Shown here: piece by piece, positions 1 to 5,926 of the stretch | How positions within the stretch are numbered: position 1 is the stretch's first letter | Layout: the number at the start of each line of letters is the position of its first letter | Virus record (IMG/VR): IMGVR_UViG_2547132417_000011 | Reading direction: 5' to 3' (one strand) | Origin: a virus | Lineage: Duplodnaviria; Heunggongvirae; Uroviricota; Caudoviricetes | Length of the DNA: 5,926 nt | Translations under genes and position numbers: made by a program | The notes under the pieces: generated by a model | Seen by the model: only the letters and a program-made list of their open reading frames with translations | Told to the model about the DNA's origin: nothing | The model's database searches: none

Positions 1-187
1 ATAGCAGCTTTCCCTCGCGCCATTGTTGTCGCCATTTGAACAACAGATTGGCGTTAATGCCATTTTCAAGAGCAAGTTTTGAGATGGATATCCCGGGTTC
101 ACAGGAGGCAGCAACGAGCTGCTGTTTAAATTCGGGAGGATAATTAGGGCAGCCTTTTCGCCTGCCGGGAGTCACATTTTTCTGCAT
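1..187 (-). CDS. IS66-family accessory protein TnpA-like (helix-turn-helix), N-terminal part; 3' end outside window
   Basis: Minus-strand ATG at 187-185 opens a frame to the window edge: MQKNVTPGRRKGCPNYPPEFKQQLVAASCEPGISISKLALENGINANLLFKWRQQWREGKLL. The EFKQQLV...LLFKWRQQ pattern is typical of IS OrfA HTH proteins, and it sits about 65 bp inside the GTAAGCG terminus. No strong SD; in-frame GTG starts at 196 and 208 are alternatives. Confidence 0.6.
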   Translation of the reverse strand, partial: MQKNVTPGRRKGCPNYPPEFKQQLVAASCEPGISISKLALENGINANLLFKWRQQWREGKLL

Positions 188-234
188 ATCTGACACTTTG
201 GTTCCCACTACTTATTTGGTGGACACCACTTTGT

Positions 235-567
235 CTAATTTGTCAGATTCTGACCAGACGGTTCAGGCTGTACGCTTACGTAAAACCAGTAACCAGGCAC
301 GGTAATACGGCGGTTAGCGGTAATATCAGGAACTTCAATAACACTGGCGTTACGGGGTTCAATGCCTGTCACATTCTTACCGACCCACACCACGCGCCCG
401 TCTCCGGTGTAAGCTATTTTTATTGTGTCGCTGGCGAAATTCTTCTGTTCTTCATACCAGTTTTTGCCGTCTTCCGAAAAAAGCCAGGTGATACCATATT
501 GTTTTGTCAGCTGATATTGTTCCGCGGTTTTCGGGTTACCCGCAGTAATATTTTTTAAATGCAACAT
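235..567 (-). CDS. Phage tail fibre assembly protein (P2 G / Tfa-like), apparently truncated and C-terminally fused to IS-derived codons
   Basis: ATG at 567 lies 2 nt after the tail fibre stop. The N-terminus MLHLKNITAGNPKTAEQYQLTKQYGITWLFSEDGKNWYEE...VPDITANRR resembles Tfa N-terminal domains as I recall them. Codons from 279 downward (VSVQPEPSGQNLTN, stop at 235-237) are encoded by the IS terminus. Product is 110 aa against a typical Tfa of about 170-200 aa. Confidence 0.7.
   Translation of the reverse strand: MLHLKNITAGNPKTAEQYQLTKQYGITWLFSEDGKNWYEEQKNFASDTIKIAYTGDGRVVWVGKNVTGIEPRNASVIEVPDITANRRITVPGYWFYVSVQPEPSGQNLTN
255..279. repeat. Terminal inverted repeat (IRL) of IS66-family element
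   Basis: Reverse complement of 255-279 aligns with 5646-5670: gtaagcgt, cagc and gaaccgt blocks are identical. The repeat is imperfect. Confidence 0.65.
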
Positions 568-569
568 TG

Positions 570-1955
570 TTAAACACTCGCCACGTTATACCAGGTACCG
601 TTAATCAGTTTCTGAAGCGGTCGGTAATACACGCCGCCGATGTTATCTGCCGAATTACTTCCGGTTTCCTGAACATTAATACCGGATAACCCGTGGCCTG
701 AAGGTGAGCGAAATGTCCAGGATATCTGGTTACCTCCCGGGTTGTAATACATTTCGGAACCATAACGCACATCCTGCACGCCGCCTGTTTTGGTCTGGTA
801 ACGGGCATCAAAGTTTCCGTAGTCTGACGGTGTTACCCGTCCTGTAACGTTTACAGCTTTATTACTCTGGATACTGCCACTCTGAAAACGCAACACATGC
901 ACGCTATTGGCATAAACATCCAGCAGGCCATCACCATTCTGTTTCAGGCCGGTATCGTTATCCCCGAAAGCAATTGAGTTTCCGCCCAGCGCGTTCTGAA
1001 CACCGATACCCAGCGCACCATTGACCTGAGAACCGCCGCCAACAGACACTTTATGCGACATGGATATTTCACCCGTCCGCAGATTAATAGTGAACGGTCG
1101 AAGTGGACCAATATCGCCATTCTCGCCCTGACCTTCACTGGTAGGGATAAGGTGCAGGCACTCTTCCGAACGACGAAAAATCAGACCAAAGGCTTCGTTG
1201 AAAATCCTCAGCGCATTAACACCACGGATTTTCAGTTCCCCGGTCATCAAATCACCAGATTTTTTTACATATCGCAGATCAAAATCTGAATAGATATTTC
1301 CAGGGTTTATCACACTGAAATAGCTTTTCTCGCTATCAAGAAGGCAAATCAAAGGAATACCTTTAATGATATCGTTCGCTACCAGCCCGGACTTGTTCCC
1401 CTTATAAAGCGGGAACGTACCAAGAACCCTTCCACCCAGTGTTAATTGCAGCGTTGCAGCGTTGGTATTGTTCTGAACGGGGAAAACGATAATCGGGGTT
1501 CGTAGCGTCCAGTCCGAGCCTCCATTAACAAAAAACGTCGCGGGAAGTTCCAGCGTCAGTGCATTTGCAGTGCCGCCAGCAACACCCGCAATATAATGAC
1601 CGCTCTGAAGCTGCGCTATCTGTACGAAATAGTTTTCCGATCCACGTGTGGCAAAGTTAGCCACAACGTCATTAAGGGACCAACCTTTCGCGGTTGTTCC
1701 TTCCTGCCCACGAATGACTTTCAGCACATCACCGCTTACCGATACCAGGTGACAAATCTCAAACGCTGACTCTTTATTATCGGTAAGCGTAATTTTTGCA
1801 TAGACGCGTTGCCCGTTCGATTTATTTTCAAAATCGGCAGAAAGCAATTTTGCAAATTTAGCTCCCGTGCCCGGCATCACCGGAATATCAGTCTGAATCG
1901 TCGTAATATCACCAGCCAGTGCTGAAACAACATTATTGCCGAATCCAAGAATCAT
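570..1955 (-). CDS. Phage tail fibre protein, P2 gpH-like C-terminal receptor-binding region
   Basis: 461 aa ORF. The C-terminal half contains NALGGNSIAFGDNDTGLKQNGDGLLDVYANS and ends ...LINGTWYNVASV, closely resembling the P2 H / Mu S-type tail fibre C-terminus as I recall it (...KYINGTWYNVAQV). ATGA start/stop overlap with the upstream gene at 1952-1955. Confidence 0.9.
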   Translation of the reverse strand: MILGFGNNVVSALAGDITTIQTDIPVMPGTGAKFAKLLSADFENKSNGQRVYAKITLTDNKESAFEICHLVSVSGDVLKVIRGQEGTTAKGWSLNDVVANFATRGSENYFVQIAQLQSGHYIAGVAGGTANALTLELPATFFVNGGSDWTLRTPIIVFPVQNNTNAATLQLTLGGRVLGTFPLYKGNKSGLVANDIIKGIPLICLLDSEKSYFSVINPGNIYSDFDLRYVKKSGDLMTGELKIRGVNALRIFNEAFGLIFRRSEECLHLIPTSEGQGENGDIGPLRPFTINLRTGEISMSHKVSVGGGSQVNGALGIGVQNALGGNSIAFGDNDTGLKQNGDGLLDVYANSVHVLRFQSGSIQSNKAVNVTGRVTPSDYGNFDARYQTKTGGVQDVRYGSEMYYNPGGNQISWTFRSPSGHGLSGINVQETGSNSADNIGGVYYRPLQKLINGTWYNVASV

Positions 1956-2578
1956 TTTTGAATCACCGTTGTTGCATAGGAATAAATAAAAGGGAGTTTT
2001 ACATATTTCTGGTCAATGGCATCTTTCAGAAAATAGCCTATACCATCACCATATTCTGGTATCTGAATAGAAAAAACACTGTCCGATACAGTCACGCTCA
2101 CATCAAAAGTGTGCTGCAACGGCGGGTCTATTCCGTTTTTCCCATGAATGAACCGCGCCACACGGCGCTTTAACCAGTCAATGCAGAAATGCGAACCGTC
2201 AGCCTTATAAAAATTCCACGTTAATATTCGTTTGAAATAATCATCAGGTACATACGATGCCTGCCCCGGAACATAATTCCGCATTGCTGCATACGGGATC
2301 GTATTGTATTCAATGGTATCGTATGCGCCGCGTGCAATAGCCTCCTCGGAAACCTGTAGTAAAGGCCTTTCAACGCCATAAATCCCGAGTGCAATCCAGT
2401 CCAGTAATTGCCCGGTTATTGATTCCGATGTCCAGCATGGCAATGCCAGATTGTTGAATGAATCGAGGTATTCCTGAGCAATTTCATTGTATGCATCAAA
2501 GAACGCAACAACATTCGGATCATCTCTGTACTGCGCAAATGGATAAGCAGGGAGAATTTTCTCAGTCAGATATTGCAT
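1952..2578 (-). CDS. Phage baseplate/tail protein, P2 gpI / Mu gp48-like by position
   Basis: ORF in the I position between the J-like gene and the tail fibre. The track's 244 aa version starts at a TTG (2686) deep inside the J-like gene. I prefer the ATG at 2578 (MQYLTEKILPAYPF..., 208 aa), which overlaps the J-like stop by 17 nt, typical of translational coupling. An in-frame ATG at 2635 is an alternative. Assignment is by synteny, not a recognised motif. Confidence 0.65.
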   Translation of the reverse strand: MQYLTEKILPAYPFAQYRDDPNVVAFFDAYNEIAQEYLDSFNNLALPCWTSESITGQLLDWIALGIYGVERPLLQVSEEAIARGAYDTIEYNTIPYAAMRNYVPGQASYVPDDYFKRILTWNFYKADGSHFCIDWLKRRVARFIHGKNGIDPPLQHTFDVSVTVSDSVFSIQIPEYGDGIGYFLKDAIDQKYVKLPFIYSYATTVIQK

Positions 2579-5486: not shown

Positions 5487-5493
5487 CGTGCCC

Positions 5494-5631
5494 TCACCAC
5501 CATCGGATCTGGCCAACAAAATAACCAGACGCCAGAATCAGAAAGACCAACCAAATAAGCAAAAACTTCCAGGTGGATAATTTTTCAGCCATAACTCGAA
5601 TCTCCCGAATCAGTTTGCTAAAATCAAACAC
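5494..5631 (-). CDS. Short ORF (45 aa with GTG start) with hydrophobic C-terminal segment; either a small membrane protein or the 3' remnant of a gene disrupted by the IS
   Basis: Minus-strand frame is open from the IS boundary (5645) to a TGA at 5494-5496. AAGGAG at 5642-5637 is 5 nt upstream of GTG 5631; an internal ATG lies at 5592. Translation VFDFSKLIREIRVMAEKLSTWKFLLIWLVFLILASGYFVGQIRWW. The stop is 8 nt upstream of the W-like ATG. Confidence 0.3.
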   Translation of the reverse strand: MFDFSKLIREIRVMAEKLSTWKFLLIWLVFLILASGYFVGQIRWW

Positions 5632-5645
5632 GACTTCTCCTTGCC

Positions 5646-5670
5646 GTAAGCGTGCAGCAAGAACCGTATT
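5646..5670. repeat. Terminal inverted repeat (IRR) of IS66-family element
   Basis: Plus strand from 5646 reads GTAAGCGTGCAGCAAGAACCGTATTG, matching the reverse complement of 255-279. It lies 13-37 nt downstream of the TnpC stop codon. Confidence 0.7.
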
Positions 5671-5682
5671 GACGGGGATGTG

Positions 5683-5926
5683 TTATTCAGTCGGCAGTGC
5701 TACGCGCCAGGGGAGCAGTTCGCCGACCCGGTTTATCGGCCAGTCGGCTATGACGTCAAGGACATAGCGGAGGTAGCTTTCTGGCTCCACTCCGTTCAGT
5801 TTGCACGTCCCGATCAGGCTGTACAGCAGCGCTCCCCGCTCTCCTCCATGATCCGAACCGAAGAACAGGTAGTTTTTGCGGCCCAGACTGACCATCCGCA
5901 ACGCATTTTCAGCGATGTTATTGTCC
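5683..5926 (-). CDS. IS66-family transposase TnpC, C-terminal part; 5' end outside window
   Basis: Minus-strand frame open to the window edge: DNNIAENALRMVSLGRKNYLFFGSDHGGERGALLYSLIGTCKLNGVEPESYLRYVLDVIADWPINRVGELLPWRVALPTE, stop at 5683-5685. The NNxAExALR...GRKNxLF.GSD.GGER...LPW C-terminal signature is characteristic of IS66-family transposases. Confidence 0.85.
   Translation of the reverse strand, partial: DNNIAENALRMVSLGRKNYLFFGSDHGGERGALLYSLIGTCKLNGVEPESYLRYVLDVIADWPINRVGELLPWRVALPTE

What the first reader, a model, noticed from the sequence alone, without database searches (positions are those of the whole stretch)
1..5926. Two IS66-family termini in direct orientation bracket a 5.37 kb phage module carrying the nuclease gene
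The left edge is an IRL plus tnpA start (terminus at 279) and the right edge is a TnpC C-terminus plus IRR (terminus at 5646), both on the minus strand, with terminal repeats about 85% identical over 24 nt. The 8-bp flanks differ (GTAAAACC at 280-287, TCCTTGCC at 5638-5645), so these are two element copies or a rearranged pair, not one insertion. Direct IS repeats can mobilise the intervening DNA as a composite unit or delete or circularise it by homologous recombination. That offers a route for the W-nuclease-J-I-H cassette to move independently of the prophage.
Basis: partly seen in the sequence, partly recalled or inferred. Interest (0 to 1): 0.5.

Follow-up and report, generated by a model that had tools for sequence, protein, structure and literature searches.

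The report
IS66 copies flanking a decaying prophage piece
The window is a whole short-read contig holding a 5.4-kb piece of a Rac-like E. coli prophage tail module, still in its original chromosomal place, cut off on both sides by two same-oriented copies of a 2.4-kb IS66-family insertion sequence; this is ordinary IS-driven prophage decay, not a demonstrated mobile cassette.

Summary
Window 1-279 is the left inverted repeat (IRL) plus tnpA start, and 5646-5926 is the tnpC 3' end plus right inverted repeat (IRR), of an IS66-family element. Both lie on the minus strand. Both ends are 100% identical to the two ends of single 2442-bp copies elsewhere.

The window is an entire WGS contig (E. coli 2854350, APZL01000105.1) that breaks inside the repeat at each end. 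The 5366 bp between the ends is near-identical to an uninterrupted Rac-like prophage next to uspF-ompN in other strains.

The left copy is a simple insertion in the tail-fibre-assembly gene. Another contig of the same assembly shows IRR|GGTTTTAC|tfa C-half, which is the predicted 8-bp duplication.

A same-lineage scaffold (CP189652.1) contains the whole window. There the right copy lacks its first 231 nt, including IRL. It abuts a second IS66-family element with a nested IS3-family element, and about 3.1 kb of phage genes are deleted. The source assembly shares the truncated-tape-measure junction.

The segment was never found outside this locus or on a plasmid. Two copies are confirmed; mobilisation of the cassette has no support. 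A composite transposon is unlikely. Homologous deletion between the copies remains possible. This is ordinary and of low interest.

The parts
1..279 (-). Left-hand IS copy, 5' end. IRL lies at about 254-279 with its terminus at 279. There is a 92-nt leader, and tnpA starts at 187 (62 codons before the contig ends).
   Evidence: Pfam HTH_Tnp_1 1.6e-11. 100% identical to IS66-family copies with annotated tnpA. Aligned to the L002/L004 copies. IR motif hit at 258-279.
280..287 (.). GTAAAACC, one copy of the 8-bp target-site duplication made by the left IS copy.
   Evidence: The other copy is on contig APZL01000098.1 of the same assembly...CGCTTAC|GGTTTTAC|CGAAATGATG (L043 237-260). The uninterrupted target is seen in L001 11993-12010.
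235..567 (-). Truncated tail-fibre-assembly gene (tfa). Codons 1-96 (567->280) are fused to 14 codons read from the IS terminal repeat, giving a 110-aa ORF.
   Evidence: ORF list. The intact 181-aa Tfa is in L001. Pfam Caudo_TAP is a weak hit, below the curated cut-off. The protein is annotated END41537.1 in E. coli 2854350.
570..1955 (-).
   Evidence: ORF. Pfam gp37_trimer 1.3e-4. Same position in intact prophages.
1952..2578 (-).
   Evidence: Called gene in L006 and in all intact loci. No Pfam hit.
2562..3788 (-). Baseplate J/gp47-like protein, 408 aa.
   Evidence: Pfam Baseplate_J 2.5e-7. RefSeq annotation 'baseplate J/gp47 family protein'.
3829..4989 (-). Low-GC inserted gene (moron) encoding a 386-aa protein (391 aa from the upstream ATG at 5004) with an HsdR N-terminal nuclease-like domain.
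   Evidence: Pfam HSDR_N 5.6e-14 and HSDR_N_2 2.4e-9. RefSeq 'type I restriction endonuclease'. GC 0.34-0.38 against 0.43-0.53 elsewhere. The same slot holds ant or lprI genes in other prophages (H26-H30).
5139..5486 (-).
   Evidence: Called gene L006 441-788. Widespread in the same prophage context.
5494..5631 (-). 45-aa hydrophobic ORF with RBS AAGGAG. The right IS copy ends 6 nt upstream of that RBS (14 nt upstream of the GTG start).
   Evidence: ORF. Called in L006 and L055. Sequence read directly.
5646..5926 (-). Right-hand IS copy, 3' end. The last 80 codons of tnpC run 5925->5686, the stop codon is at 5683-5685, and IRR lies at about 5646-5671 with its terminus at 5646.
   Evidence: Pfam DDE_Tnp_IS66 and DDE_Tnp_IS66_C. 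100% identical to an ISEc22 copy and 280/281 to the L004 copy. 100% over 700 nt to 2442-bp copies carrying the window's left-end type.

Best explanation
The window is a complete short-read contig from ETEC-collection isolate E. coli 2854350. It holds the stretch of a Rac-like prophage tail/baseplate module that lies between two directly oriented copies of a 2442-bp IS66-family element. RefSeq labels a truncated copy with this left end 'ISEc8 family'. The assembler stopped about 280 nt inside the repeat at each end.

The segment has not moved. It sits where it always sits in this prophage, next to uspF-ompN.

Left copy (shown). It is a simple insertion into the tail-fibre-assembly gene after codon 96, with an 8-bp target duplication.

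Right copy. It ends in the intergenic gap between an intrinsic-terminator-like hairpin and the ribosome-binding site of the 45-aa ORF (shown). In the same lineage its far end has been lost: a second, different IS66-family element carrying a nested IS3-family element abuts position 232 of the copy. About 3.1 kb of phage DNA, from the tape-measure C-terminus through four baseplate genes, is deleted. This is shown in CP189652.1. For the source it is inferred, because the source shares the truncated-tape-measure junction.

Overall the locus is a defective, IS-riddled prophage. The only rearrangement the pair can readily promote is homologous recombination between the roughly 2.2 kb of shared direct repeat. 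That would delete the segment, or excise it as a non-replicating circle. This last step is inferred and was not observed.
For: - Identity of the contig: L006 = APZL01000105.1, 1-5926; strain name.
- Native context: window 280-5645 differs at only 2 bases from NZ_CP025840.1, where it is contiguous with the rest of the prophage next to uspF/ompN. The same context holds in every complete genome and long contig examined. The closest isolated phage is Rac-SA53.
- IS family and termini. Reference copies are 2442 bp with TSD AATTTACA and 2454 bp with TSD GCATATCT. One copy type matches both window ends at 100%.
- Outer-left junction with TSD, in the same assembly and in JGI 3300015155.
- SKESA-type assemblies carry both the 5361-bp segment contig and a partial Tfa starting YRNDEF.
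- Full architecture in CP189652.1.
- Same lineage: 11 mismatches in 10,266 nt against the source, versus 103 in 7.9 kb for strain 214-4.
- The source shares the truncated tape-measure gene and its junction with the inserted IS DNA.
Against: - The outer side of the right copy was not recovered from the source assembly itself. Its truncation there is inferred from a related scaffold that differs by about 0.1-0.2%.
- The left copy is unresolved in every record. Contigs break in it, and CP189652.1 has a 100-N gap after IS position 293. Its completeness is therefore assumed, not shown.
- The 281-nt right end is also 100% identical to ISEc22. On the window alone the right copy could be a different family member. 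CP189652.1 shows the ISEc8-like type at 99.9% over positions 232-2442.
- Read depth is not available, so amplification cannot be excluded.
Confidence: 0.85

Rival explanations
1. The two copies and the segment form a working composite transposon or translocatable unit. This would move the W-nuclease-J-I-H cassette independently of the prophage.
For: The two IS66-family ends are in direct orientation and of the same type. IS pairs can in general behave this way (established knowledge of composite transposons).
Against: The segment is found only at its native prophage position. It is never on a plasmid next to the IS. The left copy has its own TSD, so there is no shared duplication around the unit. 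In CP189652.1 the upstream copy lacks IRL and its first 231 nt. The outer flanks are the adjoining prophage DNA, apart from a deletion.
Confidence: 0.03
2. The window is an assembly artefact. There is only one IS copy, and the contig is a circular permutation, or a circle of IS plus segment.
For: The contig ends in the same repeat on both sides, and the flanks do not form a duplication. An assembly graph alone cannot tell these cases apart.
Against: The far side of the left copy continues into tfa-C, a tail-fibre gene and uspF on another contig of the same assembly. CP189652.1 places the right copy after other DNA and the left copy before tfa-C. The same structure recurs in independent samples and with different assemblers.
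Confidence: 0.02
3. In the source strain both copies are complete, independent simple insertions, each with its own 8-bp duplication. The truncation of the right copy seen in CP189652.1 would then be a later event in a sister lineage.
For: The left copy is a simple insertion. The window shows only 281 nt of the right copy. The source differs from CP189652.1 by 11-14 SNPs per 6-10 kb.
Against: The source assembly and JGI 3300015155 both carry the same truncated tape-measure junction with the second IS66-family element. In CP189652.1 that junction is one side of the deletion that removed the outer flank and IRL of the right copy. The predicted outer-right junction with TSD was not found, although the collections scanned did not hold these samples.
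Confidence: 0.1

Closest known systems
IS66-family insertion sequences of E. coli (ISEc8 / ISEc22 group)
   Same: - Termini start GTAAGCG, and the terminal repeats are imperfect over about 24-30 nt.
- The tnpA-tnpB-tnpC gene order is present, with a DDE TnpC.
- Copies make 8-bp target duplications.
- The element is 2442 bp long.
- Both window ends are 100% identical to existing copies.
   Different: Nothing is new in the element itself. Only about 280 nt of each copy lies in the window. The right end cannot separate the ISEc8-like type from ISEc22, because the two share their last ~396 nt.
Rac-like prophages at the uspF-ompN side of the Rac locus (e.g. Escherichia phage Rac-SA53, KU052037)
   Same: The tail/baseplate gene order is the same. 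Identity is 94.6% over 69% of the segment. Several ETEC and other E. coli prophages are 95.6-100% identical.
   Different: The slot between the gpW-position gene and gpJ carries an HsdR_N nuclease-like gene here, and an antirepressor gene in Rac-SA53 and others. In this lineage the prophage is broken by at least four IS copies and has lost about 3.1 kb.
Composite (class I) transposons such as Tn10 or Tn5
   Same: Two copies of one IS flank a non-IS segment.
   Different: The copies here are direct rather than inverted. There is no common target duplication. The segment is at its native locus. The upstream copy probably lacks its outer end. No second location is known.
IS26-type translocatable units and IS-mediated adjacent deletions
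   Same: Direct repeats of an IS can excise 'IS plus segment' circles. The neighbouring 3.1-kb loss, bounded by an IS66-family element without a TSD, looks like an IS-associated deletion.
   Different: No circle or re-insertion product was seen. IS66-family elements are not known (to my knowledge) to use the IS26 conservative mechanism.

Membership tests
IS66 family insertion sequence | Imperfect terminal inverted repeats beginning 5'-GTAAGCG | tested here: met
   258-279 (-) reads GTAAGCGTACAGCCTGAACCGT and 5646-5667 (+) reads GTAAGCGTGCAGCAAGAACCGT. There are 2 hits against 0.00 expected, with 20/24 positions identical. The same terminus is reported for classic IS66 members in PMC12888890.
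IS66 family insertion sequence | Three genes: tnpA (HTH), tnpB and tnpC (DDE transposase) | tested here: met
   In the window, the tnpA start matches HTH_Tnp_1, and the tnpC end matches DDE_Tnp_IS66 and DDE_Tnp_IS66_C. The full 2442-bp L004 copy matches the window's left end at 100% and its right end at 280/281. It gives NCBIfam hits for IS66 TnpA (97.7 bits), IS66_TnpB (120 bits) and transpos_IS66 (461 bits), all above cut-off.
IS66 family insertion sequence | 8-bp target-site duplication on insertion | tested here: met
   Left copy: GTAAAACC at window 280-287 and GGTTTTAC after IRR in L043. Reference copies: AATTTACA and GCATATCT. Right copy: the outer flank was not recovered.
Composite transposon | Two IS copies, each with an intact outer end | tested here: not met
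   In same-lineage scaffold CP189652.1 the upstream copy starts at IS position 232 and has no IRL. The downstream copy runs into a 100-N gap after position 293, with an IRR junction on the other side. This was not tested directly in the source strain.
Composite transposon | One target duplication flanking the whole unit | tested here: not met
   The left copy carries its own duplication. The inner flanks differ, GTAAAACC against TCCTTGCC. The outer flanks are adjoining prophage DNA.
Composite transposon | The unit is found at more than one genomic location | tested here: not met
   The segment is found only in the uspF-ompN prophage, in 25 complete genomes and all long contigs examined. Among 72,556 plasmids the only record with more than IS matches covers 61% of the window, without the IS ends, and looks like a phage-type record.
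Rac-like prophage tail module | Collinear, near-identical DNA inside an intact prophage at the Rac-side locus | tested here: met
   There are 2 mismatches in 5366 nt to NZ_CP025840.1, with tail and head genes on one side and uspF-ompN-nifJ on the other. Identity to phage Rac-SA53 is 94.6%.

The most novel reading that the evidence does not exclude
The directly repeated IS66-family copies act as a translocatable unit. Recombination between them releases a circle of one IS plus the cassette, and the IS then re-inserts it elsewhere. This would spread the HsdR_N nuclease-like gene with a tail-fibre set among prophages or plasmids.
Probability: 0.03. Interest if true: 0.4.

Novelty: already known. 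Interest (0 to 1): 0.1.

Why it matters
It matters little beyond bookkeeping. The result shows that a contig bracketed by IS ends is usually just the unique DNA between two repeat copies. It also shows that this Rac-like prophage is being dismantled by IS66- and IS3-family elements in one E. coli lineage, with tfa interrupted and four baseplate genes plus the tape-measure C-terminus lost. The nuclease-like gene therefore now sits in a dead prophage. If the pair really moved the cassette, it would be a modest example of IS66-mediated capture of phage genes. Nothing found here points that way.

Tried and rejected
- Complete genomes. I looked for either junction in 5426 complete E. coli genomes. 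None has it; every long match stops at 280 and at 5645-5648.
- IMG/VR scans. I scanned for the phage flanks just outside each junction and for the predicted outer-right junction. Only intact prophages, or nothing, came back.
- Metagenome scans. The first used a degenerate pattern for both predicted outer junctions with an 8-bp TSD and found nothing. The second used a degenerate pattern for both outer phage flanks and found 8 loci, all intact prophages. These negatives are uninformative. The collection evidently lacks JGI 3300015155, whose outer-left junction should have matched.
- Exact protein of the neighbouring baseplate gene. The clustered search returned only representatives.
- Contig-edge partial TnpC (80 aa) and TnpA (62 aa) products, used to find sister contigs of the same assembly. 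They returned many unrelated IS flanks and not the wanted contig.
- Guessed small ORFs across the predicted outer-right junction. They are not in the collection.
- 'Different IS at each end'. I considered ISEc8-like on the left and ISEc22 on the right. The right end is 100% ISEc22, but single 2442-bp copies match both ends at 100%. CP189652.1 shows the ISEc8-like type on the right.
- 'Single IS or circular artefact'. Rejected.
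Full report
**What is in the window**

The window is the whole of contig APZL01000105.1 (5926 bp) of assembly GCA_000356845.2. The junction-spanning 110-aa ORF is annotated END41537.1 in Escherichia coli 2854350. All genes lie on the minus strand. In that reading direction they are:
- the last 80 codons of an IS66-family tnpC plus the right inverted repeat (IRR), 5926->5646;
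- a 45-aa ORF;
- a 115-aa protein in the gpW position;
- a low-GC gene for an HsdR_N nuclease-like protein;
- a Baseplate_J-like protein;
- a 208-aa protein;
- a 461-aa tail-fibre protein;
- the first 96 codons of a tail-fibre-assembly gene (tfa);
- the left inverted repeat (IRL), leader and first 62 codons of an IS66-family tnpA, 279->1.

**Check of the observation**

A degenerate 22-mer for the terminus occurs only at 258-279 (-) and 5646-5667 (+), against 0.00 expected by chance. The two terminal repeats agree at 20 of 24 positions.

The Pfam hits are HTH_Tnp_1 (1.6e-11) on the left, and DDE_Tnp_IS66 (5.9e-9) and DDE_Tnp_IS66_C (7.7e-18) on the right.

Reference copies fix the ends and the family:
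- The L004 copy is 2442 bp and flanked by AATTTACA on both sides.
- An ISEc22 copy (L003) is 2454 bp and flanked by GCATATCT.
- The three proteins of the L004 copy pass the NCBIfam cut-offs for IS66 TnpA, TnpB and transposase.

**Are the two ends the same element?**

The left end resembles the ISEc22 IRL region only loosely (54-63% identical columns per 100-nt window in the full-length alignment). The right end is 100% ISEc22. That first suggested two different elements.

However, the 2442-bp type and ISEc22 share their last ~396 nt almost exactly, and are 88% identical over positions 360-2442 overall. A 700-nt query joined 419 nt of the 2442-bp (L004-type) element just upstream of the right end, most of it diverged from ISEc22, to the window's own right end. 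It finds 100% matches. In several records these matches lie exactly 2442 bp from a 100% match to the window's left end. Examples are strain 504838 (4972226-4974667), plasmid NZ_CP029980.1 (62748-65189) and strain KBN10P04869 (1857319-1859760). Both ends therefore fit one element type. RefSeq calls a truncated copy of it 'ISEc8 family'. I recall that ISfinder lists ISEc8 at 2442 bp; that is from memory and was not tested.

**Where the segment belongs**

Window 280-5645 differs at only two bases from NZ_CP025840.1 (ETEC 214-4). There it is a contiguous part of a prophage. Tail, sheath, tape-measure and baseplate genes lie on one side. The rest of tfa, a second tail-fibre gene and then uspF, ompN and nifJ lie on the other.

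Twenty-five complete genomes hold at least 80% of the window, always without the IS. No match extends past 280, or past 5648. The same context is seen in every long contig fetched through the gpW-position protein, the tail-fibre protein and the 445-aa tail protein (P0228) of the same prophage. The nearest isolated phage is Rac-SA53. Among plasmids, all but one record match only the IS; that one covers 61% of the window without the IS ends.

**The left copy is a simple insertion**

I predicted the products that a gene caller would give for the tfa remainder beyond the IS, and looked them up by exact sequence.
- The 59-aa internal-start product is END42030.1 of the same strain.
- Partial products starting YRNDEF occur in the same four SKESA-type assemblies that hold the trimmed 5361-bp segment contig.
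- Contig APZL01000098.1 (88,885 bp) of the source assembly begins inside tnpC. It reads ...CTGCACGCTTAC|GGTTTTAC|CGAAATGATG..., followed by tfa-C, a 608-aa tail fibre, uspF, ompN and nifJ.

GGTTTTAC is the reverse complement of window 280-287, and the uninterrupted target is visible in L001. The same junction is present in JGI metagenome 3300015155.

**The right copy and the wider locus**

GenBank record CP189652.1 starts exactly at GGTTTTAC+tfa-C. It ends with tfa-N, IRL, IS positions 1-293 and then 100 N, so it is a scaffold broken inside the left copy. It contains the whole window at 100% in the parts I could read: window reverse-complement positions 1-1137 and 3282-5926. Over 10,266 nt of flank it differs from the source by 11 bases, against 103 in 7.9 kb for strain 214-4.

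Upstream of the segment, CP189652.1 reads as follows:
- prophage genes up to a tape-measure gene truncated to 576 aa;
- then a different IS66-family element (TnpA 215 aa, TnpC 523 aa, about 70% identical) with an IS3-family element nested in its leader;
- then, directly after that element's IRR, positions 232-2442 of the window-type element (99.9% identical);
- then the segment.

The DNA from the tape-measure C-terminus through the 222-, 88-, 335- and 237-aa baseplate genes and the terminator (about 3.1 kb), plus the first 231 nt of the right copy, is missing. The second IS66-family element has unlike flanks. This points to an IS-associated deletion (inference).

The exact 576-aa truncated tape-measure protein also occurs in the source assembly (APZL01000090.1) and in JGI 3300015155. 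In both, the DNA continues across the same junction. The source very probably has the same architecture. The join between the second element and position 232 was not seen in the source itself.

**What this means for the interpretation**

The further idea, that the pair lets the cassette travel, has no support:
- The segment is in situ.
- The left copy inserted on its own.
- The upstream copy probably has no outer end.
- No second location exists in the collections searched.

What remains possible is homologous recombination between about 2.2 kb of direct repeat, which would delete the segment. An adjacent deletion has evidently already happened next door. The exact tail-fibre protein is indexed in 302 blocks. 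In 65 of these the longest contig is 5-10 kb. This suggests, but does not prove, that the IS-bracketed form is common among drafts of this lineage.

**Verdict**

This is an ordinary case of IS insertions breaking up a prophage, seen through a contig that ends in collapsed repeats. The IS, the prophage and the arrangement are all of known kinds.

Noticed in passing
window 3829-5004 and 3801-3826: The HsdR_N nuclease-like gene is a low-GC island (0.34-0.38 against 0.43-0.53). It is followed by a perfect hairpin with T-runs (AAAAAACCCGCTTTCGCGGGTTTTTT). In other prophages of this type the same slot, between the gpW-position gene and gpJ, holds ant/antB antirepressor or lprI genes (H26-H30; L058). 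The slot looks like a hot spot for inserted genes (morons).
   Followed up: partly
L083 17950-19110 (LGMO01000125.1): In one strain the nuclease-like gene is called as two ORFs (88 aa and 257 aa), which suggests a pseudogene.
   Followed up: no
L080 14150-18271 (CP189652.1): This is a second IS66-family element (~70% identical; TnpA 215 aa, TnpC 523 aa) with an IS3-family element nested between its IRL and tnpA. Its flanks differ: tape-measure codon ~560 on one side and position 232 of the other IS on the other. This implies that about 3.1 kb of phage DNA plus 231 nt of the neighbouring IS was deleted.
   Followed up: partly
L098 2660-2759 and L046 1 (CP189652.1 end and start): A record listed as a 4.94-Mb chromosome ends in 100 N inside the IS and starts exactly at the target duplication. 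It is a scaffold broken at this IS copy. It is absent from the RefSeq complete-genome collection.
   Followed up: yes
L004 3201-5642 vs L003 1328-3781: The 2442-bp element and ISEc22 are mosaic relatives. Their last ~396 nt are virtually identical (1 mismatch). Per 100-nt window the rest is 43-63% identical in the first ~400 nt and 70-99% beyond. Right-end sequence alone therefore cannot identify the element.
   Followed up: partly
L007 tail (ENA ERZ27315457 k141_11031): This metagenome contig of the same segment ends in Illumina adapter sequence (AGATCGGAAGAGC...) fused to the IS tnpA start. This is an untrimmed-adapter artefact.
   Followed up: no
H73, PP818812.1: A record named 'Actinobacillus phage vB_Apl-pPE4' is 96.5% identical to 70% of this E. 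coli prophage segment. The host assignment looks doubtful.
   Followed up: no
window 5632-5645; L001 17367-17457: The right IS copy ends 6 nt upstream of the AAGGAG ribosome-binding site (14 nt upstream of the GTG start) of the 45-aa ORF. It lies just downstream of a terminator-like hairpin (AAAGCCCCGA...TCGGGGCTTT) that follows the 237-aa baseplate gene. Expression of the distal tail genes may now depend on read-out from the IS.
   Followed up: no
L032 1-1187 (GCA_000354955.1 AQDH01000099.1): In another assembly with a similar WGS accession prefix, the same IS right end abuts a 302-aa Baseplate_J gene of a different prophage (next gene PF10934 Sheath_initiator). This is another insertion in a phage baseplate/tail region.
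   Followed up: no
L028 and L031: Some carriers of the same tail module lack the head-to-tape-measure genes altogether; lysis genes are followed directly by the 88-aa gene. The prophage therefore decays by several independent routes.
   Followed up: no
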